Source of the DNA: Octopus vulgaris
Taxonomy: Eukaryota
DNA: 64,000 nt
Assembly (NCBI GenBank): GCA_951406725.2
Contig: OX597821.1
Location: 15,934,001-15,998,000 of the forward strand
Direction: 5' to 3'
The stretch's first letter is position 1; every line of letters starts with the position of its first letter. The position numbers were made by a program, and so were the translations under genes. This document shows positions 8,049-35,446 of this stretch, in pieces. The notes beneath the pieces are model-generated. The model searched no databases and had not been told where the DNA came from. It saw nothing but the letters and a program-made list of their open reading frames with translations.

Positions 8049-9224
8049 TGTTACGGTTGGCTAGGTGCATTTCTGGTGACCCACATAGGAATAATGGCAC
8101 CATGATGTCTGGTGAAATGTGACGGGTTCTTTGTCTAATGGAGGACTGATGGGTTTTGGAATGACCTGTGACCTCGTGTGGTTGATTAGAGGGTCAGTGA
8201 GAATGTGAAAGAGGAAGACAGATTAAGGGAATCTAAGAGCAGATGGAGAGGGTATTGACAGTAAGAGAAAAGGGACAGATTAAGGGCTGAGAGCAAATAG
8301 AGATAGGGTATAAGCAGTAGAGGACGGATGGAGAGGCTAAGAGACAGCAGCCGATATAGATAGAGTAAGGAATCAGATAGCAAATAGAAAGGCTAAGAGA
8401 CAGCAGGCGATATAGATAGGGTATAAGGACCAGGGCAGTTAGAAAGGGTAAGAGCGATATAGACAGAGGGAGATGAGGGGAGTGGAAGAAGGACAGAGAC
8501 GAAGTGAGGTCTGGTAGTTCGCGGTTGGTCGTCAAGAAGGGCAGTCGCTGGCCGGTCCTCGAAGAAGACAGACGGACCTTGGATTTAAGGAGCAAGCGTT
8601 GGAATTCTTAGGAGCAAGTTGGATGCGAGAAAGCTTGGCGGCACAGAAGGGAATTAGCAGTATTCAGAGGAATTAGCAGTATTCAGAGGAATGGGACACT
8701 GGCAGATTCAATTAGGAATTGAGGTATGTGTTTGTGCATTGATATGTGTCACGGTGTATTGAACAGTGAAAAGAACAGTCAAGGACTCTGTCGATGTGGT
8801 CGATAAAGGACATTGTGAAGAAGAAGAGTAAAGGACTTGTTGATTGTGATGTTTAGGAAGAGACTTTAAAGAACTGTTGTCTTGGGACGTGTACTCTTGA
8901 ATTGTTACATGATGTTGTATTATGCTTTGAGTTGTACTCTTGAAATGCTGTTGTATTATGTATTGAGTAGTCACGTGCATGCTTTGATGTATCTTGATGT
9001 TGTAACAATTGTAATTGTCGTATAAACTGTTGTTTGAATATAAGCCAGTGTTGCCAGTTGTTGCCTTGCCTCTTTGGGTTGTATCTCGGGTTGTGCCTCT
9101 GTATCTCTGTGCTGTTGAGGTTGTGGCAGTATCTATCTGTATCTCCTCTCTCCGCCTCTTTGGGTTCCGTGGCGGAACTTGTGTGAGCCGTTCGGGACGG
9201 GCGATGACGGGTGATTCCGTAACA
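8049..9224 (+). mobile_element. 5' LTR (~1176 bp) of a Gypsy-type LTR retrotransposon
   Basis: Begins TGTTACG and ends CGTAACA (7-bp terminal inverted repeat); followed 2 nt later by a PBS; internal GA-rich tandem repeats. Confidence 0.85.
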
Positions 9225-9226
9225 AC

Positions 9227-9244
9227 TGGTGTCAGAAGTGGGAT
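9227..9244 (+). promoter_or_regulatory. Primer-binding site complementary to the tRNA-Leu 3' end
   Basis: TGGTGTCAGAAGTGGGAT is the reverse complement of ATCCCACTTCTGACACCA (recalled tRNA-Leu(CAA) 3' end with CCA). Confidence 0.85.
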
Positions 9245-9252
9245 TGTCCTGA

Positions 9253-10480
9253 TTGCTGCGTTTCGATCGGTTCTTTTTCGCTATGGATCTGTCTGGCTGT
9301 CAGACCGGAGACGAGGGGATTTCGCTTGCCCTGATTGTGGAGATGTTAAGGGGCCAGATGGCGCAGACGGATACGTTCATGGAAAGGATGGACGACAGGC
9401 GACAGGGCCTGTGGGCAGATCAGCGGGAGCTTGAGGTTGCGGATGGGTCAGCTTTGGAGGATCGGTGTCGGACCGGGGATAGCGACGGTCCTGTGGGCAG
9501 AGATTGCCCGTCGAACGAAGCATCGAGAGAAGCGGAACCTGTGCTGGTTGCCGAAATTTGTGAAGCTGTACCCAAGAAATCTTGTGATTTGGAATCCGTA
9601 GAGGTTAAGGAATCTGAAAGGCCTGTTGAAGGTGTTATGGCTGATGCTGTTGTTCCGTGTCTGGGGCCCTTGGCATCTCGACCCCTGTCTCTCGGAACTC
9701 GGGACGAAGAGCTGGCGAGGGCTGGGGCGGATGTCGCTGAATCCGAGGTTCCGGCTCTGTGTGTGATGGTCGCGGCAGGTGTTGTGCCGTGTGCGGGTCC
9801 TTTGGTGTCTGGACCCCTGTCTCTTGGGGCCCGGAAGGACTGTATGGTTCCCACTGTGGAGAGGCCACAGGAGTGGATGGACTGGCGGCCGGCGTGTGTG
9901 TTGTGAGGCCTGCGGTACGGAGGCTGGTGAGGAAAAGGACCAAGCCCGTTGACGAGGCAAGACGGCTGCGAGCGGTGGTGGGTCCACTGAGACCAGGAAG
10001 ACTGCTTCAGCGTTGGGTGAGCTTTGTGGTTGATGGTTGCTTGGGGCCGGTGGAGCCCGACAGGCAGTGCATCGTAAAAGCTCAGTTGAGGGTCGGGTGG
10101 ACTCTAGTGGAAGCAGAAGCTGGCTGAGCGCTGGCTGGGTCGGCGGATCTTTTGGAAGTGGCACAGGCGATTTGTGGAAGGCAAATCGAGGAATCGTGCC
10201 AGATGGCGAACCAGTGGTGGGGCCAGTTCTGCCGATACGGCAACGCAGTTGAAGGAGTTGGTGGCCCACTGATGCAGTTGAGGAGGCGGTCCGCAAGGAG
10301 TCGCTGGTGCTTTGTTGGCACTTGGGGGAGCTCTGTATTTGATGGTTGCGTGGGGCCGGTGGAGCCCGACATGCAGTGCGGAGTAAGAGCTCAGTTGAGG
10401 GTCGGCTTGACCCTGGTGAAGGCAGAGTCTGACAGAGCGCTGGTTGGGTCGGCCGAGTTATTGAATTTGGTTCGAATGAA
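9253..10480 (+). pseudogene. Truncated gag-like internal region of the LTR element; no pol and no 3' LTR
   Basis: GC-rich block directly after the PBS; ORF 9253-9906 (ATG ~9283, helical N-terminus); internal duplications (~9640-9700 vs ~9770-9830; ~10030-10110 vs ~10335-10420). Confidence 0.55.
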
Positions 10481-10742
10481 GTAGATTTCCCAGAAAATTA
10501 GTACTCGAAATTTAATACGAATACAGAGGTTCATGCTTTGTTATTTAAGAAACGAAGGATACAATCGTTTCAATCTACAATGTTGTGCTCAATTCAGAAA
10601 CACCAATGATTGGCCGAAAAGGTCCATTACAATGCCATTATGTAATGTACAAGCACTCCCACGCTTGTACATAGATATTATACATACGCACAAACGTATG
10701 GATAAATGAGTTGATATATACGTGCATGCTTTTATATATATG

Positions 10743-10889: not shown

Positions 10890-11316
10890 GTGGGTGTGTA
10901 GGTTCTACCTGAGATGTACCTGCTGGCATGGAGAGGAAGGTGCAGGCTGCCGTTTTGCACATCGGGGAACCTGCCGCAGAGACACGAAACAGATCAGAAA
11001 CAAACTAACAAAAGGAAAAGCGATGGACCACGCACCACCTGCCCCAAAACGGAGGTACGCAGATGTGGTGCGTGCCACAAACGGCCAACATGATGTTGTT
11101 GAAAGGGCAGCAGCTGAAAAAGAATCTTTTTTGTGCATGGCACAAAAGATTATACAGCAGCTAACCTGGTTTCATCAAACCCAAGCTCGCAGATGGGACT
11201 ACCCACAATATACAAGACCACCACAGCAAACAGATCAAGGTGGACACCGCCGGCAACAGCATACACCTCACCTCGATGCTCCTACTGAACATCAGAGGAC
11301 TGCAAACACTCAGTAA
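10890..11316 (+). pseudogene. LINE A ORF1 C-terminal remnant with CCCH zinc finger
   Basis: [22 protein letters not shown]...YADVVR...[13 protein letters not shown], homologous to LINE B ORF1. Confidence 0.8.
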
Positions 11317-26164: not shown

Positions 26165-26264
26165 NNNNNNNNNNNNNNNNNNNNNNNNNNNNNNNNNNNN
26201 NNNNNNNNNNNNNNNNNNNNNNNNNNNNNNNNNNNNNNNNNNNNNNNNNNNNNNNNNNNNNNNN
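26165..26264. other. Assembly gap (100 N)
   Basis: N run; hides the 3' end of LINE B. Confidence 1.
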
Positions 26265-28461
26265 TTGTATATGGCATCCAGATCTTGTTGTAAAAGGTCA
26301 GCATCAGCTGGGTTTTTGATTGCCTGTGCTACCTTTGTGTCATCAGCATAGCTAGTGAGGGATGTTGTTTGTGCTACCAAGGGCATGTCAGAGAGCGCCA
26401 CCAAAAACAGCAAGGGTCCCAAGACTGTGCCCTGTGGCACCCCGCTTGCTATTGGTGTCTTTCCCGAGAGGGCTCCATTGGCTGCAACCATCTGGCTTCT
26501 GTCCTTCAGGAAGTCATGTATCCACTCACCTACTTTTCCTGTTATGCCGAGTCTGAGTAATTTGTGACATATCACTCCGTGGTCGACTTTGTCAAAGGCC
26601 TTCGCAAAGTCGAGATATACCACATCCACCTGTGAGCGATCCAGTAGTTGTTTCAGTACCCAGTCGTAGTGTTGTAACAGCTGCGTAAGGCAGCTTCTTC
26701 CTGGGCGAAAGCCATGCTGTGTGTCAGTGAGACGGTTAGTTTCTTCGAGGAACGTGATCAGTTTTTTTCTGATGATTCGTTCCATGACCTTACTTATGTG
26801 TGACGTCAGGGAGACTGGCCTGTAGTTTTTGGCCTCTGCTCTACTCCCTCCTTTGTGGATAGGGCATATGGTGCCTTCTTTTAGCGCCCTGGGCAGTTTA
26901 CCGTTAGCCAAGGAACCACTGAAGAGCTTCTTCAGTGGTCCCGCTAGGGCATGCCTGCATGTTTTTAGGAGGACTGCTGGGAATCCATCTGGTCCAGCAG
27001 CTGAGTTTATTCTCATTTCTTCTATGGCAGATATTACATCCCTCTCTGTTATGTCTATGTGGTCGATGGTTGTTGTTTGGTTTTGGAGTGTTGTGGCATC
27101 AAAGAAAACTTCTGGGTTTGTGATTTGCATGTGCCCCAGAGGGGATGTGAACACACTTTTATACTGTTCCTTTAGTATTTCACTTATCCCTTGGGGGTCC
27201 TCAGTTAGAGAGCCCTTTTTATCAAAGAGTGGGCCAATCTTGCAGTGTACCGAGGTGGTTTCTTTCGCAAATTTAAAGAAGGCTTTAGGGTTTGTTTTAA
27301 TATTCTCTATGGCCCTGGCTTCTCTCTCTGCCCTCTCCTTCTCATAGGAAAGTTTGAGTGCAGTTTCCGTTTCAAAAAGTTTCAGGTGGAGTCCCTCATT
27401 GTTTCTCTGCCGTGCATTCAGTTGCTTCGAGAGCTTAGCTCTTCGCCTCATAAGTATTTTCCTGTCTCTGGGAATAACGTTCCTATGCCCGCTGGCTTTT
27501 TCTCCGGGACAAACTTATGGCATATGTTCTGTATTGTTGTCATGAAATGTTGGAAATGTGTGTTGGTGTCTTGTGTGGTGATGAAGTCACTCCAGTCATG
27601 TTTTCGGATCTCTTCGTTGATCTTCTTCCAGTTTGCCTTATGGAAGTTTAGACTGGATAGGCCTGTGGTATTTTCTAATGGCTGCGTCTCAACTAACTCT
27701 CTCATACCATATATCATTACCTCTACTAAGTTGTGATCTGAGAGAATTGTTGGTGTTACCATTATGTTGTGGATGAGCATCGGGTTGCTTGTGAAACAGA
27801 GGTCCAAGACATTCTCACCTCTTGTTGGCCAAAGCACTGCTTGCTCCATGAAAAACTTGCGTGTGAGAGCCAACAAGGACTCTGTCTGTCTCTGTTCAAG
27901 TGATGTCATTCCAGGGAGGAGATGGCCATCTGGCCATTTGACTTTCGGAAGGTTAAAATCTCCCAGCAGTAGAATGGTGTTACCCTGGTCCAGTTTGTCC
28001 AGGACTTCTTCTATTCTTCTGAGGCTATCTTCAAACACTCCTTCATGACTAGGGGTGTCTGGTGGCCGATATGTGACACATATTACTATTTTCGGTTGTT
28101 TCATGTGTACTATCAGTGTGTCACAGACTGAGTTTGAGTGTGTCAACAGTACTATGGGTGTGACATCTTCACGGACGTACAGGGCAACCCCACCATGAGT
28201 TCTTTCCTTCCTGTCCGACCGAAAAACAGTATACTTCGGTATGTGTATTTCTGCATCTGCTATACTGCTTGACAGGTGCGTTTCAGTCAGCGCTATGCAT
28301 ATTGCATGGTTGCTTGTGCTCAAGTCCCTAAGGTAAGGAATTTTACCCATATTAGTGGGTTTCACCAGACCTCTGACATTCAGCAGAAGCACTGGTGAGA
28401 CACCCGGGGTGTCAATAAAGGCTGACGGTGTGGCACCTGGGCCGGCGTCAGCGGTGGCCAC
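26265..28461 (-). pseudogene. LINE B ORF2 (APE + RT), one frameshift near 27450
   Basis: LLNVRGL, ALTETHL, GDFN, LSDHN; NYRPVSLTS, YLDFAKAFD, GVPQGTVLGP, SYADD. Confidence 0.95.
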
Positions 28462-29314
28462 CCTGGGTCCCTTGATTGTGGTGGTCTTGAGTGCTGTTGT
28501 GAGTGCCCCTGGCTCTGAAGACGATGTATCCAGGCCAGTTGTCCCACAATTTTCTCTGCCATTTCCACAAAATTTCTTTGTTCTGCTGCCGCCGTCTGCA
28601 TTTCCTCTGCAAATGTGCGCCTTCTCCTTGTTGGGGCATTACGCACTATGTCTGCATATTTCTGGGGCAGCTTGTATTTGTTCTGGTTTTGGTTAAGGCA
28701 TTTTGGTCGAGTGGGTTTGATGCAATTTCCATAGGGCCTGGGATGAGCGAACCTGCATCCTTCCCCTGTTTCTCCATGCCAGCAGGTTCCATTCCGGAAG
28801 AATTTGCATGTTATCTGGGTTTTCTTGTCCCCAGTTCCTCTCTGTTTTTCTTCCTCCGTTGGACGGTTGTCCACTGGTTCCTTTCTGCATAGGTCTTTTC
28901 ATCCGGGTGGTTATTTTCTGTTTCCCCATCGCCGCCTATCTGTTGTTTGCCCTGCTTGCCTTCTTCGACTGTGGCAGTGGGCGTGTCATTTTTTGACACT
29001 CTGTGGTTGGTGTTTCCTGTTTCCATCTCTCTCTCTTTGTCTTTGTCCACCTTGAGGACTTGGCTTAGCAAAGCCATGTGTGGTGCAATGAGAGTGTAGG
29101 CCCTTTCGACTTCTCTTTTCTTCCTCTCTACTTGCGCCAACGTCCTCATAAAGCCATGGCTTTTCAGGGTCGCCGCTATGTTTTTAGTTGGTTGCGATCT
29201 GTCGGCCGAGCTCCATCCTCTGATGAAAACTTCCAGCTCTACTTTCGTCCAGTTACGCTGGCTTTTGTTGACGCCAGTGTTTGCATTCACCTCTAATTTT
29301 TGCATGTTGTCCAT
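28380..29314 (-). pseudogene. LINE B ORF1: Myb/SANT-like (trihelix) domain + CCCH zinc finger, split by a frameshift near 28815
   Basis: QRNWTKVELEVFIRGW...NIAATLKSHGFMRTLAQVERKKREVERAY; CKFFRNGTCWHGETGEGCRFAH. Confidence 0.8.
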
Positions 29315-29472
29315 TCCGTTGTAGCGGGGAGAGAGAGAGAAGCTGTGAGGGAAAAAGGGAGAAGGGAGGAGAGAGGAAGAGATTGTGATTGTGAGGAAGG
29401 GAGGAATTATATTATATTATATTATATTAATTTATATTAATCTAATAGTGCAATAGGGGGTAGGGAGAAAGT

Positions 29473-29900
29473 AGAGAAAGGGAGCGTCTATGTACTTAAG
29501 GAGAAATTGGGAGCCGAGAGTAAGAGAGAAGAGGAAGAGGAGAGACTGAGAGCTGAAGGAAGAGAGAGAAAGCGTCTATGTCCTTATATGTATCCGAGAG
29601 AGGAGAGTAAGTTAGAAGAGAAAGGGAGCGTCTATGTACTTAAGGAGAAATTGGGAGCCGAGAGTAAGAGAGAAGAGGAAGAGGAGAGACCGAGAGCTGA
29701 AGGAAGAGAGAGAAAGCGTCTATGTCCTTATATGTATCCGAGAGAGGAGAGTAAGTTAGAAGAGAGAAATGGAGAGACAAGGAGAAGCGGGAGAGAAACT
29801 GAAGAGATAGAAGAGAGTAATGGAGAGACAAGGAGAAGCGGGAGAGAAACTGAAGAGATAGGGAGAGAAGGAAGAAATATAGAGAGAATTTATATATTTG
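29473..29900. repeat. Tandem repeats in the putative LINE B 5' UTR (144-bp x2, then 51-bp x2+)
   Basis: agagaaagggagcgtctatg starts at 29473 and 29617; atggagagacaaggagaagcg at 29769 and 29820. Confidence 0.85.
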
Positions 29901-30192
29901 AAAGAGGGGAGTAAGATAGAATGAGAGCTATGAAGAGACAAGGAGAAGCGTGAGTGAGAGAAACTGAAGAGACAGAAGAGAGAGAGAGAGAGAGGGGAGA
30001 ATTCTAAGCGAAGCTATTTGTACACACACACACACGCGTATACATACATACACATACACACATATACACATGTGTGCACACGCACATATATAAACAGTAG
30101 TACCAAGTGAGTATATAAAGAAACAATAATAATAATAATGAAATAGCTAAAGAAAACAATCCAAGAGATTTTACAGAAATTAAGCATAGAAT

Positions 30193-31120: not shown

Positions 31121-32242
31121 ATGACTAACTTGCAGGCCTGCAACAGACGAAATTGGTCTGATAACGAAATTGATGTTTTAATAAACACATGGCTCTCTCT
31201 TTCCCAAACAGAAAATCTAAATGTCTTGTGTTTGAATGAGATTGCCGAAAAAACATCACAAGTGGTCAACACACGATCCGTCAAACAGATTCGTAGCAAG
31301 TTGAAACATATCGAAGTATCTTTCAAACTGATAAGAGGCCATTATGAAAAGCTTCTACATATTTTCACAGTTCAAGAACAACAACAGCTAGAAAATCAGC
31401 AGCCACAACAACAACAACAACAGAATGAGCCACTCCTGGTTCCCAACACAATGGCTGACCCTGTCATCGGTCAGGCACAACAACAACAACAACAGCCACT
31501 GCAACAAGAACAACAACAGCCACTCCTCAACTCTAGCTTACTAGACGATTCACTAAATGCCAGTATCTTTTCACCGCTCTCACAGCAACCACCACAATTA
31601 TCATCATCATCATCACCACCGCTGCCACCATCGTCTTCTATCACCAAAAATACCAACAAAAAACCAAATAAGAAACCACTGCCCTCTTCCCCCACATCAC
31701 CACCTCAATACTACTGCAGTAACAAAAACTTAAAGAAACATAGGAAGCAGAATGCGCCCCCCACGGCACAAACAAGAAATCCCCAAATATGCCGCTATTC
31801 ACTGCGCCAGAGACTCTGCACAAATAGTGACTGCATCTTCACGCATCTACCCGGCACTAGACGCACTACTGGCCAAGGCCAAAGCACGCATCCCACAATA
31901 ACATCAACACCACCAAATAGTAAATCGAAATTCAAAACACACACAACTCGGAGTCCCAAAATCTGCCGGTATTCCCAACGTGAGAGAACATGTCTACTGA
32001 GTGACTGTCCCTTCACTCATCTTCCAGGGACCCGACGCACAAACAGAAACGGGGCCTCAAGCCAACACACAAACCTGAATAACAATAAAAATAGAAACAC
32101 ACCATGCTGCAGTAATGCTGGTCCAGTCTTTTCAGGAAGACACAAAAACAACAACAACAAAAGTGGAAACTACAACCCTATCCAACAGTGCAACCACACC
32201 TCCAGCCAAAAACTGCTCCCTAAGCAGGAAAATTCTTTTTAG
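31121..32242 (+). CDS. LINE C ORF1: Myb/SANT-like N-terminus, polyQ/S/P linker, two CCCH zinc fingers
   Basis: RRNWSDNEIDVLINTW...EIAEKTSQVVNTRSVKQIRSKLKHIEVSF; CRYSLRQRLCTNSDCIFTH and CRYSQRERTCLLSDCPFTH. Confidence 0.88.
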   Translation: MTNLQACNRRNWSDNEIDVLINTWLSLSQTENLNVLCLNEIAEKTSQVVNTRSVKQIRSKLKHIEVSFKLIRGHYEKLLHIFTVQEQQQLENQQPQQQQQQNEPLLVPNTMADPVIGQAQQQQQQPLQQEQQQPLLNSSLLDDSLNASIFSPLSQQPPQLSSSSSPPLPPSSSITKNTNKKPNKKPLPSSPTSPPQYYCSNKNLKKHRKQNAPPTAQTRNPQICRYSLRQRLCTNSDCIFTHLPGTRRTTGQGQSTHPTITSTPPNSKSKFKTHTTRSPKICRYSQRERTCLLSDCPFTHLPGTRRTNRNGASSQHTNLNNNKNRNTPCCSNAGPVFSGRHKNNNNKSGNYNPIQQCNHTSSQKLLPKQENSF

Positions 32243-35200
32243 CCATGTTGAACATGGCAAAAGAGATACACAAAAACATTCTAGCCATCACTCAACACCA
32301 TCCTATGCTATTACCCCAGTGCACCAATTCCCCACATTGCTGCCACTAACACACACAAAAAATCCAAGCCCCCTGCAACAGTCAAAACCAGCCACTACAC
32401 TAACCTCCACATTCCTACTCAATGCACAAGGTGTCAGCCCTTCCATCAATGCACAAAAATGGAAGGTCCAATTCATTGAAGACTGGGTTGGCAACCATTC
32501 ACACCACATCCCTTTCTTCATTCTCACTGAGACCCACCTTGACAACTCCCACTTGGAAGCCGAAGTGAGAGTGAAGAATTTCACAACCATCCGCGCGGAT
32601 CGTATCGGCAGGAGGAAGGGTGGAACTGCCATTTTCCTGCATGATTCATTTACGGCAGATGGAAATAGTATATTCTCCAACGGCTACTGTGAATCAGTCA
32701 CCGTGCACAACAAAGCCAATGATCTGACAGTAATTGGGCTCTATAGGCCGCCCCAAACACCCATACTGTGCTTTAAAGAATGCCTCAACAGCATTAAGTG
32801 CTTTATTCAACAGTGCCATTCTAGCAACATACTCATGATGGGAGACTTCAATCTACCCTGTGTTGACTGGACTACAAACTGTTTGAAACCAAGCACTCCC
32901 GCCTCAACCGCTGACAAAGAAGCAGCAGAGTCACTTTTCGACTTTACGAATGAGTTTTTCTTGTCCCAACTTGTCCTTGCACCAACAAGACATCAGAACA
33001 TTTTGGACCTAGTGTTTAGTAACCACACTAACACTATACATAACGTTACAGTGGAAAAAACCCTTCTTTCAGACCATGACATGGTTCTCTGTAACATGAA
33101 ATTCCACCAGCCGAAAGCTAATCCTAGTGACCTTCCTCCAGCCCACCCATTTGACAACATGGATCTCCATAAAGCCAACTGGGATGCAATCAGGAACGAG
33201 CTATCAAATGTTGACTGGTCCTTTACACATACACACATCTCCACCAACCATAAAACATCTTGGCAGATCTTTGTAGACACCGTCACAGACATATGTGCAA
33301 AACACTCCCCACCAAGACCTGTGAACAAAAAGTGCAGAATCCCCCAAAACAGAAAAACCATTATCAGAAAAATAAAAAGAACAAACAAAAAAATTAACAA
33401 ACTAAAGTACTGCCAACAGCAACACACACATTCGACGGCTATCGCACTGCTTGAATCCAAAAAATATAACCTCCAACAATGCATGAAGTCCCTCATCAAT
33501 AACCAAAGATCAGCTGAGGAGAAGTGGGCCATTGAAAAAATCAAACTCAACCCCAAAGTGTTCTTTTCATTTGCGAGGAAACGCAGGGTCACTGTCTCCA
33601 CTGTAGGCCCTCTAATTGACGAAACTGGCACTCTCCAAGATAATGCCAAATCCATGGCCGAGATACTGCAGAAACAATACTGCTCTGTTTTCAGCAATCC
33701 TGATATGGCCGATCTGGGCTGTATCAGTGATGTCAACCCCCAACACACTATATCGGACATAACGTTTAGTGCCCCTGATGTCTTAGCGGCGATAAACGAA
33801 ATAAAACACAATTCAGCAGTAGGCCCCGATAGGTTCCCTGCTTGTGTCCTGAAGGTGTGTCGACACCAACTTGCATCTCCCCTTGCTAATCTGTGGAGAA
33901 ACTCACTGGATGCTGGCTATATTCCAAAAAACCTTCTGTCCCAGTCTGTTGTCCCAGTTTTCAAAAAGGGAAACAAGTCCCTTGCAGTGAATTACCGTCC
34001 GATCTCACTCACCTCTCATATCATCAAGGTATTTGAGAGGGTGGTGAGATCTCAAATAACCCAATTTCTGGAAAGCAACAGACGGCTGATCTCCAACCAA
34101 CATGGGTTCCGTAATGGAAGGGACTGCCTAACGCAGCTCCTGCATCACTTTGAGGACATTTTGAGAGCTTTGGGAGAGGGCTCCAACACCGATGTCATCT
34201 ACCTTGATTTCAGTAAGGCCTTCGACAGGGTCGATCACAAGATCCTATTGAAAAAACTATCCAACATTGGTGTCTCTGGAAAGTTACTGAAATGGATTAA
34301 GTGTTTCCTGACAGACAGATCTCAACATGTTGTAGTTGAAGGGGTAAAATCAAGCCCAGCCAAAGTCAGTAGTGGCGTTCCGCAAGGCACTGTGCTGGGC
34401 CCACTTCTTTTCATCATTTACATTAATGACATTAATGACATCATCAAGCACAGCAACATAAAAATCTTTGCAGATGACTCCAAGCTACAGAAGGTCATAA
34501 ATGAGGCGAGTGACCGGACATGCCTTCAGTCAGATCTACTGGCTGTTATCCAATGGGCAGAAAAAAACAATATGCTGCTGAACGAGGATAAATTTGAGCT
34601 AATCCACTTTGGAAAAGAGGATGCCCTGAAACTCCCATACTCCCTTCCTTCAGGTGAAACTCTCGCGGCGTCCAACAACATCAGAGACTTGGGAGTAATT
34701 GTGGACAACAACGTAAGCTGGGCCACTCATATAAACACCAAAGTTGACATGGCCCGCAGAATGTGTTCCTGGATTCTCAGAACTTTCCAGTCGAGAGATA
34801 TCCACACCATTATCCTTCTCTTCTCCACTTTTGCCCGACCCCACCTTGAATACTGTTGTCCACTGTGGTCTCCCCACACAATACAAGGTATCAAAAAAGT
34901 CGAAGCACCTCAAAGGGCAATCACAAAAAAGATAGATGGCATGACAGGCCTCGACTATTGGGGTCGACTAGAAAAGCTAAAACTCTATTCTCTCCAACGT
35001 CGTCGTGAGCGCTACATCATCTGCATGATGTGGAAAATATTCCATCAGCATTGCCCAAATGATGTTGGCATCACCTTTAAGGTACATCCAAGGCTTGGGC
35101 CCCGTGCCATCCGCCCAAAACAAAAATCGCACTCTCATCTCATAACAACAATACGGCACAATTATTTCACCTCAATTGGCCCCGCTCTCTTTAACATTAC

Positions 35201-35354
35201 ACCAAAACACATTAAAACAGAAACTGACCCTATAGGGTTCAAGAAGTCTTTGGACAGATTCCTTCAAGAAATCCCGGATAAACCCCCTACACCCGGATAT
35301 GTCTCTGTAAACAATAACTCTCTACTTGAGTGGGCCATAGTGCCCAAATTCTGA
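32115..35354 (+). CDS. LINE C ORF2: AP endonuclease + reverse transcriptase (true start uncertain)
   Basis: 1079-aa open frame; LLNAQG, LTETHL, GDFN, ILDLVF, SDHD; NYRPISLTS, QHGFR, YLDFSKAFDRV, GVPQGTVLGP, IFADD, LYSLQRRRERY. Confidence 0.97.
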   Translation: MLVQSFQEDTKTTTTKVETTTLSNSATTPPAKNCSLSRKILFSHVEHGKRDTQKHSSHHSTPSYAITPVHQFPTLLPLTHTKNPSPLQQSKPATTLTSTFLLNAQGVSPSINAQKWKVQFIEDWVGNHSHHIPFFILTETHLDNSHLEAEVRVKNFTTIRADRIGRRKGGTAIFLHDSFTADGNSIFSNGYCESVTVHNKANDLTVIGLYRPPQTPILCFKECLNSIKCFIQQCHSSNILMMGDFNLPCVDWTTNCLKPSTPASTADKEAAESLFDFTNEFFLSQLVLAPTRHQNILDLVFSNHTNTIHNVTVEKTLLSDHDMVLCNMKFHQPKANPSDLPPAHPFDNMDLHKANWDAIRNELSNVDWSFTHTHISTNHKTSWQIFVDTVTDICAKHSPPRPVNKKCRIPQNRKTIIRKIKRTNKKINKLKYCQQQHTHSTAIALLESKKYNLQQCMKSLINNQRSAEEKWAIEKIKLNPKVFFSFARKRRVTVSTVGPLIDETGTLQDNAKSMAEILQKQYCSVFSNPDMADLGCISDVNPQHTISDITFSAPDVLAAINEIKHNSAVGPDRFPACVLKVCRHQLASPLANLWRNSLDAGYIPKNLLSQSVVPVFKKGNKSLAVNYRPISLTSHIIKVFERVVRSQITQFLESNRRLISNQHGFRNGRDCLTQLLHHFEDILRALGEGSNTDVIYLDFSKAFDRVDHKILLKKLSNIGVSGKLLKWIKCFLTDRSQHVVVEGVKSSPAKVSSGVPQGTVLGPLLFIIYINDINDIIKHSNIKIFADDSKLQKVINEASDRTCLQSDLLAVIQWAEKNNMLLNEDKFELIHFGKEDALKLPYSLPSGETLAASNNIRDLGVIVDNNVSWATHINTKVDMARRMCSWILRTFQSRDIHTIILLFSTFARPHLEYCCPLWSPHTIQGIKKVEAPQRAITKKIDGMTGLDYWGRLEKLKLYSLQRRRERYIICMMWKIFHQHCPNDVGITFKVHPRLGPRAIRPKQKSHSHLITTIRHNYFTSIGPALFNITPKHIKTETDPIGFKKSLDRFLQEIPDKPPTPGYVSVNNNSLLEWAIVPKF

Positions 35355-35446
35355 CTTGAAAGACTTCACCAGGTGGTGCTATTAAGTTAGACATGGCCTG
35401 GGCCAATAATGGCCGAAACCTATCAAAGTATCAAAGTATCAAAGTA

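What the first reader, a model, noticed from the sequence alone, without database searches (positions are those of the whole stretch)
28380..28600. Conserved -1 slippery site joins ORF1 to ORF2 in this LINE family: predicted Myb-CCCH-APE-RT fusion protein
Seen: at the homologous ORF1 position (F-[LV]..MA motif), LINE B has A AAU UUU (28569-28575, -). Its -1 frame is open straight into ORF2 (FCGNGRENCG...KTTTIKGPRVATADAG...LLNVRGL) with no AUG before the first APE motif. LINE A has U UUU UUG (11127-11133); its -1 frame (..KTTTANRSR) aligns to B and joins ORF2 if one lost G near 11240 is restored. LINE C has UCUUUUUAG (one U short of U UUU UUA). In A and C the U-run can pair with a downstream AAAAGA (UCUUUU..GUGC-AUG-GCAC-AAAAGA; UCUUUU..GCCAUGU-UGA-ACAUGGC-AAAAGA). 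Known: X XXY YYZ heptamers drive -1 frameshifting in retroviruses and LTR elements, while the best-studied LINEs (L1, SART1) make ORF2 by reinitiation. Inference: gag-pol-like recoding would tether a DNA-binding domain to the endonuclease.
Basis: partly seen in the sequence, partly recalled or inferred. Interest (0 to 1): 0.88.

Follow-up and report, generated by a model that had tools for sequence, protein, structure and literature searches.

The report
Retrovirus-style frameshift site in LINE clade
A group of jumping genes (LINEs) in this animal genome and in distant relatives keeps a slippery seven-letter sequence just where its two genes start to overlap, so the second gene (the copying enzyme) is likely made fused to the first when ribosomes slip back one base, as in retroviruses.

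Summary
Six LINE families in this genome (A-F) put ORF2 in the -1 frame of ORF1 with an in-phase slippery heptamer at the 5' edge of the overlap. LINE B keeps A_AAU_UUU in 58 of 60 copies. LINE C's common state is U_UUU_UUA (204 copies; the window's 5-U form 99). Of 24 metagenome relatives (30-38% endonuclease identity, same clade) whose contigs hold the junction, 21 have U_UUU_UUA, two a tolerated variant, one none. Other Phe-Leu pairs in these elements use those codons 0 of 101 times. The -1 frame opens a median 5 codons before the heptamer; 18 of 29 junctions have no AUG before the endonuclease. Best reading: programmed -1 frameshifting gives an ORF1-ORF2 fusion (inferred, 0.85). Against: family A has an AUG at the endonuclease start, no shared stimulatory RNA structure was found, and no translation data exist. 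The Myb-like domain is weak and seen only in this genome's families. Ten literature searches found no such report for CR1-group LINEs; Dictyostelium TREs are the nearest precedent. This scan noted similar junctions before on other DNA.

The parts
28569..28575 (-). LINE B slippery heptamer A_AAU_UUU, in ORF1 phase (Asn-Phe)
   Evidence: 58 of 60 loci; kept in 4 of 4 public runs
28380..29314 (-). LINE B ORF1 (311 aa from the first Met in intact copies); this copy has a one-base loss at the A-run near 28849
29018..29257 (-). Three-helix Myb/SANT-like region of ORF1 (weak assignment)
   Evidence: Pfam PF13837 E 0.014 in B, 1.9e-5 in C, below cut-off; model pLDDT about 90; Foldseek MYB and GT-1 hits at E about 1
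28743..28808 (-). CCCH zinc finger of B ORF1
   Evidence: Pfam zf-CCCH E 0.024; profile hit to PDB CCCH fingers E 1e-4
28380..28638 (-). B ORF1/ORF2 overlap: both frames open; ORF1 stop at 28382-28380 overlaps the endonuclease's first motif
26260..28638 (-). B ORF2 (endonuclease and reverse transcriptase); one-base loss near 27501 in this copy; runs into an N gap (lower end approximate)
11127..11133 (+). LINE A heptamer U_UUU_UUG; in other copies the -1 frame opens 4 codons before it
   Evidence: 36 of 42 loci
11123..11151 (+). A hairpin that sequesters the U-run
   Evidence: z -2.9
11235..11241 (+). Place of the one-base loss private to the window's A copy
   Evidence: 29 of 29 other copies have the base
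11276..11288 (+). A: in-frame AUG at the endonuclease start, 10 bases before the family's ORF1 stop (11286-11288)
   Evidence: 30 of 30
31121..32242 (+). LINE C ORF1 (Myb-like, two CCCH-type fingers); stops at the U-run in this five-U copy, runs 36 codons further in six-U copies
32236..32241 (+). C U-run; U_UUU_UUA in most copies, one U short here
32235..32265 (+). C hairpin that sequesters the U-run
   Evidence: z -4.3
32246..32297 (+). C alternative stem starting 4 bases after the heptamer; candidate stimulator (predicted)
   Evidence: z -3.2
32230..35354 (+). C ORF2 (endonuclease, reverse transcriptase, no RNase H hit); no Met before the conserved Asn at 32421 in six-U copies
35421..35444 (+). 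C 3' tail of three 8-base repeats, then (TA)n

Best explanation
These LINEs carry an in-phase slippery heptamer at the start of a long ORF1/ORF2 overlap, and ribosomes translating ORF1 likely slip back one base there at a low rate to make an ORF1-ORF2 fusion. Shown in sequence: the -1 relation, the heptamer (U_UUU_UUA in most, U_UUU_UUG, A_AAU_UUU, G_GAU_UUU or G_UUU_UUA in a few), its place just after the last -1 stop, and a 51-194 codon open linker to the endonuclease. Inferred: unshifted ribosomes make ORF1p ending in an amphipathic helix; shifted ones make a minor product with the ORF1 N-terminal module (Myb-like here, PHD-like in some relatives) and CCCH finger(s), without most of that helix, joined to endonuclease and reverse transcriptase. 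The shift would set the ORF1p to ORF2p ratio as in gag-pol. A local stem probably helps in some lineages; no shared stimulator was found.
For: Clade defined on the endonuclease alone (38 rows, SH-aLRT 96, quick tree): 21 of 24 metagenome loci with the junction have U_UUU_UUA in ORF1 phase, 2 have variants whose XXX (GGA, GUU) are listed as tolerated in PMC3542737, 1 has none. U_UUU_UUA was not found in the other two phases of these leads. Codon control: 26 of 28 Phe-Leu sites read T_TTT_TTR, against 1 of 101 other Phe-Leu pairs in the same elements; the codon before takes 7 amino acids yet always ends in T in those 26. Heptamer lies 1-22 codons (median 5, n 28) after the last -1 stop, whereas the -1 frame upstream has a stop in 455 of 5723 codons and the third frame 149 of 2371 inside the overlap. 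18 of 29 leads have no Met; the next Met is 4-179 codons past the conserved Asn or absent in 300 codons. B moved the heptamer one codon and changed its letters but kept the X_XXY_YYZ form. B and C are young, multi-copy families, so the layout is not decay. Stems starting 3-10 bases downstream beat control places in 20 of 27; folding z peaks just after the heptamer.
Against: No ribosome profiling, peptide or reporter data. 11 of 29 leads contain a Met, and family A has one at the endonuclease start next to the ORF1 stop (30 of 30). U_UUU_UUG (A, E) has Z = G, outside the consensus in PMC3542737; 3 A copies sharing other changes have A_UUU_UUG. No consensus structure in 4 of 5 subgroups; none downstream in A or B (z -0.2, -0.7); the stem test is not corrected for base composition. 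21 of 29 sites end in AG like a splice acceptor. About a third of C copies have a shortened U-run. Loci are related, so counts are not independent events.
Confidence: 0.85

Rival explanations
1. ORF2 is made separately by termination-reinitiation or non-AUG initiation near the ORF1 stop, as described for SART1 and L1; the heptamer is a by-product of a conserved Phe-Leu helix start.
For: In A the AUG sits 10 bases before the ORF1 stop; B has GUG at the same place; in many relatives the ORF1 stop lies close to the endonuclease start. PMC1965478 (passages) says L1 ORF2 tolerates other sense codons at its start. The ORF1-frame helix after the site is conserved.
Against: Does not explain the fixed codons (26 of 28 against 1 of 101), the constant -1 phase, or a -1 frame kept open for 51-194 codons back to the heptamer and no further. 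18 of 29 lack any AUG in the lead.
Confidence: 0.07
2. The U-run plus AG is a splice acceptor that joins an upstream exon or leader to the ORF2 frame.
For: 21 of 29 sites read U-run then AG; an acceptor would also explain why the ORF2 frame opens there.
Against: 8 of 29 lack the AG there yet keep a slippery heptamer, including A, B, D and E. An acceptor needs no fixed phase to ORF1 codons. Spliced RNA would be retrotransposed: 376 copies match the downstream side against 371 with the preceding TAG, and none of the 13 copies (of the first 100 listed) that failed the upstream pattern was spliced: 10 had point or run-length changes, 3 were 5'-truncated. Public contigs span the C and B junctions without a joint at the site (RNA status of those runs is only a guess).
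Confidence: 0.04
3. Polymerase slippage (transcription or reverse transcription) on the U-run adds a base and fuses the frames at RNA level.
For: The C U-run varies from 3 to 9 U among copies while other 5-7 base runs hardly vary; 3 of 23 parsed F copies have 7 U.
Against: Length changes in C are mostly losses (35 of 100) and gains are rare (1 of 100); B has no long run and keeps a tandem-slip heptamer; six U is short for this mechanism (general knowledge).
Confidence: 0.04

Closest known systems
Retroviral gag-pol -1 frameshift (HIV-1 type U_UUU_UUA, recalled; general signal from PMC3542737 passages)
   Same: X_XXY_YYZ heptamer in the upstream ORF's phase at the 5' edge of a -1 overlap; nucleic-acid-binding ORF fused to a reverse transcriptase ORF
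   Different: Non-LTR element with an AP endonuclease; no protease or integrase hit; long overlap in which ORF1 still encodes a helix; no conserved stimulator found; untested
Dictyostelium TRE5-A and TRE3-A (review PMC5911963, figure legend passage)
   Same: APE-type non-LTR elements said to require a -1 frameshift for ORF2
   Different: Amoebal, tRNA-gene-targeting elements with a C-terminal zinc finger; I did not see the primary evidence or a slip site; not compared by sequence here
SART1 (UAAUG stop-start) and mammalian L1 (reinitiation); passages in PMC3708506 and PMC1965478
   Same: One bicistronic RNA, scarce ORF2 product
   Different: They make ORF2p as a separate protein; here the overlap is 32-176 codons long and mostly without an AUG
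Paramecium LINE groups 1-3 (PMC5405496 passages) and Drosophila HeT-A gag (PMC5009743 passage)
   Same: Recoding proposed in non-LTR elements
   Different: +1 shift, reinitiation or read-through in Paramecium; a shift within gag in HeT-A
CR1-group LINEs (PMC4120745, PMC13343379 passages)
   Same: ORF1 plus APE-RT ORF2, no RNase H hit, short-repeat 3' tail, PHD in some ORF1s
   Different: Neither paper's main text contains 'frameshift' or 'CCCH'; this clade is apart from the esterase-ORF1 loci in my tree and has an ORF1, unlike Zenon as described in PMC13343379

Membership tests
-1 programmed ribosomal frameshift signal | X_XXY_YYZ heptamer in the upstream ORF's phase (Y = A or U; Z = A, C or U) | tested here: met
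   B, C, D, F and 21 relatives canonical; 2 with tolerated XXX; A and E have Z = G, off consensus
-1 programmed ribosomal frameshift signal | Downstream ORF in the -1 frame, open from the heptamer on | tested here: met
   29 of 29 scored junctions, leads of 51-194 codons; L163 had no heptamer and a broken ORF1 frame
-1 programmed ribosomal frameshift signal | Conservation at nucleotide level beyond protein need | tested here: met
   26 of 28 against 1 of 101
-1 programmed ribosomal frameshift signal | Stimulatory stem-loop or pseudoknot 5-9 bases downstream | tested here: inconclusive
   Enriched (20 of 27 over controls; 8-10 of 27 with z below -1.5) and clear in C and L168/169/171/174/178, but no shared structure and none in A or B; pseudoknots not searched
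-1 programmed ribosomal frameshift signal | Measured transframe product | not testable with these tools
   Needs reporter, ribosome profiling or mass spectrometry
Termination-reinitiation (SART1, L1) | AUG at or next to the ORF1 stop and upstream of the first endonuclease motif | tested here: not met
   Absent in 18 of 29 including B and C; present in family A
CR1-group LINE | ORF2 with AP endonuclease and reverse transcriptase, no RNase H | tested here: met
   Pfam on full C ORF2: Exo_endo_phos and RVT_1 only, plus one weak unrelated hit
CR1-group LINE | 3' end in short tandem repeats rather than poly-A | tested here: met
   C ends in three 8-base repeats; only C checked; the criterion follows PMC13343379 (poly-A unique to Zenon)
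CR1-group LINE | Reverse transcriptase groups with reference CR1/L2 elements | not testable with these tools
   No Repbase or RTclass1 references held; the label CR1-group is from recalled ORF2 C-terminal motifs
Vertebrate esterase-type CR1 | Esterase ORF1 | tested here: not met
   No GDSL hit in 14 clade ORF1s scanned; esterase loci L187 and L229 lie outside the clade
Myb/SANT-like DNA-binding domain | Profile or fold match above threshold | tested here: inconclusive
   Pfam 25.4 bits against cut-off 27 (C); three confident helices; Foldseek E about 1; Atlas scores 0.85 or less

The most novel reading that the evidence does not exclude
Gag-pol-style -1 frameshifting is the normal way ORF2 is made in a deep, widespread clade of CCCH-ORF1 LINEs, and with other heptamers (U_UUA_AAC plus stop, A_AAA_AAC) across much of the CR1 group. 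The resulting fusion carries a swappable N-terminal reader (Myb-like or PHD-like) onto the endonuclease and so steers insertion, here to (TA)n repeats.
Probability: 0.4. Interest if true: 0.9.

Novelty: new variant of a known kind. Interest (0 to 1): 0.77.

Why it matters
How LINEs translate their second gene is described as unclear (PMC3708506, PMC1965478 passages), and the worked cases make ORF2p as a separate protein. A conserved, short, mutable signal in young and abundant animal LINE families makes the question directly testable with a standard reporter. If right, ORF2 of this clade is annotated with the wrong N-terminus, the true enzyme is an ORF1 fusion, and LINEs share the retroviral way of fixing the ratio of RNA-binding protein to polymerase.

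Tried and rejected
1) A second programmed shift between the Myb-like part and the CCCH finger of B: rejected, a loss in the window's copy. 2) A +1 shifty stop as C's mechanism: five-U copies share variants with six-U copies and form no subfamily, lengths form a ladder, and 3 of 4 public runs show only six U (contigs drop rare variants). 3) Splicing at the U-run: no spliced copy among 13 checked. 4) A shared RNA structure: RNAalifold on ungapped stacks gave none in 4 of 5 subgroups. 5) Expression: no RNA holder listed; no evidence either way. 6) Careful tree not finished after two runs; only the quick tree is used; L192, L202, L212 left out as too short or ambiguous. 7) Protein search with B ORF1 found only 3 proteins; fused single-ORF relatives were not searched. 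8) Atlas and Foldseek gave leads only; the VIA wide search was not obtained. 9) Literature: ten searches found no report of a -1 slippery site in CR1-group LINEs; the library lacks most subscription papers and Repbase Reports, older CR1 sequencing papers were not seen, and no supplements were read. 10) The rough joint probability of all leads being open (10^-95) treats related loci as independent and is not relied on.

Full report
Setting. The window lies in a 2.8 Gb animal genome (G000:C8). The closest protein record to B ORF1 (94% identical) carries the source label Octopus vulgaris; I use that only as a hint of the host group. Three LINEs lie in the window: A (+, junction near 11130), B (-, near 28570), C (+, near 32240). 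ORF2 has AP endonuclease and reverse transcriptase hits and no RNase H hit; ORF1 has weak Myb/SANT-like and CCCH hits.

Checking the observation. All three motifs are at the stated coordinates. B is a young family: 231 candidates, 40 scored, many identical over the junction. In 29 of 30 fetched copies ORF2 is in the -1 frame with no Met between the upstream stop and LLLNVRG. Over 60 B loci from two searches, 58 keep A_AAU_UUU. The window's copy has private one-base losses near 28849 and 27501 (the first also absent from 4 of 4 public runs). In A, 29 of 29 other copies have the base the window lacks near 11235; the -1 frame then opens four codons before U_UUU_UUG, but all 30 copies have a Met four codons before the conserved Asn. 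In C, exact patterns give 204 six-U and 99 five-U copies. Among the first 100 of 351 hits of a gapped pattern I counted 62 six-U, 18 five-U, 10 four-U, 7 three-U, 1 seven-U and 2 substituted. Five-U copies share variants with six-U copies. Six-U copies read U_UUU_UUA, the -1 frame opens just before it, and there is no Met before the endonuclease.

More families in this genome. Protein searches gave D (U_UUU_UUA, 7 of 7 loci), E (U_UUU_UUG, 1 locus) and F (U_UUU_UUA in 19 of 23 parsed loci; 7 of 30 not parsed), all in the -1 relation. D, E and F have a Met somewhere in the lead.

Distant relatives. A quick tree of 77 of them plus the six families gave one clade of 38 rows (SH-aLRT 96; careful search unfinished). 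Of its 32 metagenome rows, 8 begin downstream of the junction. Of the other 24, 21 have U_UUU_UUA in ORF1 phase, L157 has G_GAU_UUU, L160 has G_UUU_UUA and L163 has none with a broken ORF1 frame. Identity to the B endonuclease is 30-38%. The review PMC3542737 (passages) gives the consensus X_XXY_YYZ with Z = A, C or U and names GGA and GUU among tolerated XXX, so the two variants fit and U_UUU_UUG (A, E) is off consensus. The hosts of these contigs are not known.

Chance controls. At the site 26 of 28 Phe-Leu pairs read T_TTT_TTR; elsewhere in the same elements 1 of 101 does (0 of 101 for TTA). The preceding residue is any of seven amino acids but its codon ends in T in all 26. The heptamer lies 1-22 codons (median 5, n 28; L170 has no stop in its contig) after the last -1 stop, and the -1 frame then stays open for 51-194 codons, against stop rates of 8% in the -1 frame upstream and 6% in the third frame of the overlap. 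U_UUU_UUA does not occur in the other two phases of the clade's leads. 18 of 29 leads have no Met, and 3 more have one only 1-2 residues before the Asn. Loci are related, so these are not independent trials.

RNA structure. C has a second, exclusive stem starting four bases after the heptamer (z -3.2); A and B have none. Over 27 junctions the mean z is lowest just after the heptamer (-0.98; 8-10 of 27 below -1.5) and between +0.3 and -0.45 more than 30 bases away. Stems starting 3-10 bases downstream beat control places in 20 of 27 (p 0.002, composition not corrected), but no consensus fold emerged in 4 of 5 subgroups. The stimulator is therefore unresolved.

The predicted product. A model of B ORF1 shows a confident three-helix unit (residues 24-99), a low-confidence CCCH region and a helix at 235-270 that spans the slip site at 248-249. 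Fold hits to MYB and GT-1 domains are weak; the CCCH finger hits PDB fingers at E 1e-4. Of 10 metagenome ORF1s scanned none hit Myb; two had weak PHD and three weak CCCH hits; a CCCH pattern was found in 13 of the 21 U_UUU_UUA loci, several ORF1s being cut. A shifted ribosome would keep the N-terminal module and fingers and replace most of the C-terminal helix by the linker and ORF2 (inference). 'Myb-CCCH-APE-RT' is thus plausible here but not general.

Rivals. Reinitiation fits A (AUG 10 bases before the ORF1 stop) and could run in parallel there, but does not explain codons, phase or the open lead. A splice acceptor fits the AG in 21 of 29 sites but not the other 8, and no spliced copy or contig joint was found. 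Polymerase slippage is suggested by the C U-run ladder, which is site-specific (other runs nearly fixed; the A-run of the same hairpin intact in 100 of 100), but losses dominate. Whether the ladder is real or an assembly error is open: three public runs show six U only, one shows both.

Comparison with what is known. I read passages only, by term search, of PMC5009743, PMC5405496, PMC11835228, PMC5911963, PMC4700185, PMC1965478, PMC4120745, PMC13343379, PMC10294476, PMC3708506, PMC3905857, PMC3542737 and PMC5006619; no supplements. The nearest precedent is a review legend stating that Dictyostelium TRE5-A and TRE3-A need a -1 frameshift. The held part (first 300,000 characters) of the 2016 frameshifting review uses 'non-LTR' once, for HeT-A and TART. 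Two CR1-group surveys contain neither 'frameshift' nor 'CCCH'. Ten searches found no report of this signal; the library is incomplete. The label CR1-group rests on domain content, the repeat tail of C and recalled motifs, not on a reference tree. That the HIV-1 site is U_UUU_UUA is recalled. After my analysis I looked at the scan's notes: four describe similar LINE junctions in other genomes; they are unchecked and are not counted as support.

Verdict. Real feature, strongly conserved, best explained as -1 programmed frameshifting (0.85, inferred). New variant of a known kind; interest 0.77.

Noticed in passing
L187:1250-1275, L206, L229 (outside the clade): U_UUA_AAC followed at once by the ORF1 stop, in phase, 1-5 codons after the last -1 stop; L187 and L229 have an esterase ORF1, the type PMC4120745 assigns to vertebrate CR1/L2.
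   Followed up: partly
L216, L218, L228 (outside the clade): A_AAA_AAC in ORF1 phase within a -1 overlap, 6-23 codons after the -1 stop; may be a third heptamer class or a by-product of a conserved Ser-Lys-Asn motif.
   Followed up: no
window 32236-32240 and genomic C copies: The slip-site U-run is hypervariable (3 to 9 U; 35 of 100 shortened) while other runs are nearly fixed, and 3 of 13 odd copies are 5'-truncated at it: a possible reverse-transcriptase pause and slip site, or an assembly error.
   Followed up: partly
5' flanks of B and C copies (L001-L060, L091-L130): 18 of 23 truncated B copies and 7 of 11 C copies (2 more flanked by N, dropped) abut (TA)-rich DNA, against 158 of 1593 window 40-mers: these LINEs seem to prefer (TA)n sites.
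   Followed up: partly
L168, L169, L171, L174, L178, just after the heptamer: A GC-rich stem begins 3-7 bases downstream in these five sister loci (-7.5 to -17.3 kcal/mol), with different partners in two subgroups; good candidates for a stimulator test.
   Followed up: partly
window 29470-29980 (-): B's 5' region holds a direct duplication of about 150 pyrimidine-rich bases shared by full-length copies.
   Followed up: no
window 8708-10497: An unrelated GC-rich stretch with several overlapping open frames just upstream of LINE A; not examined.
   Followed up: no
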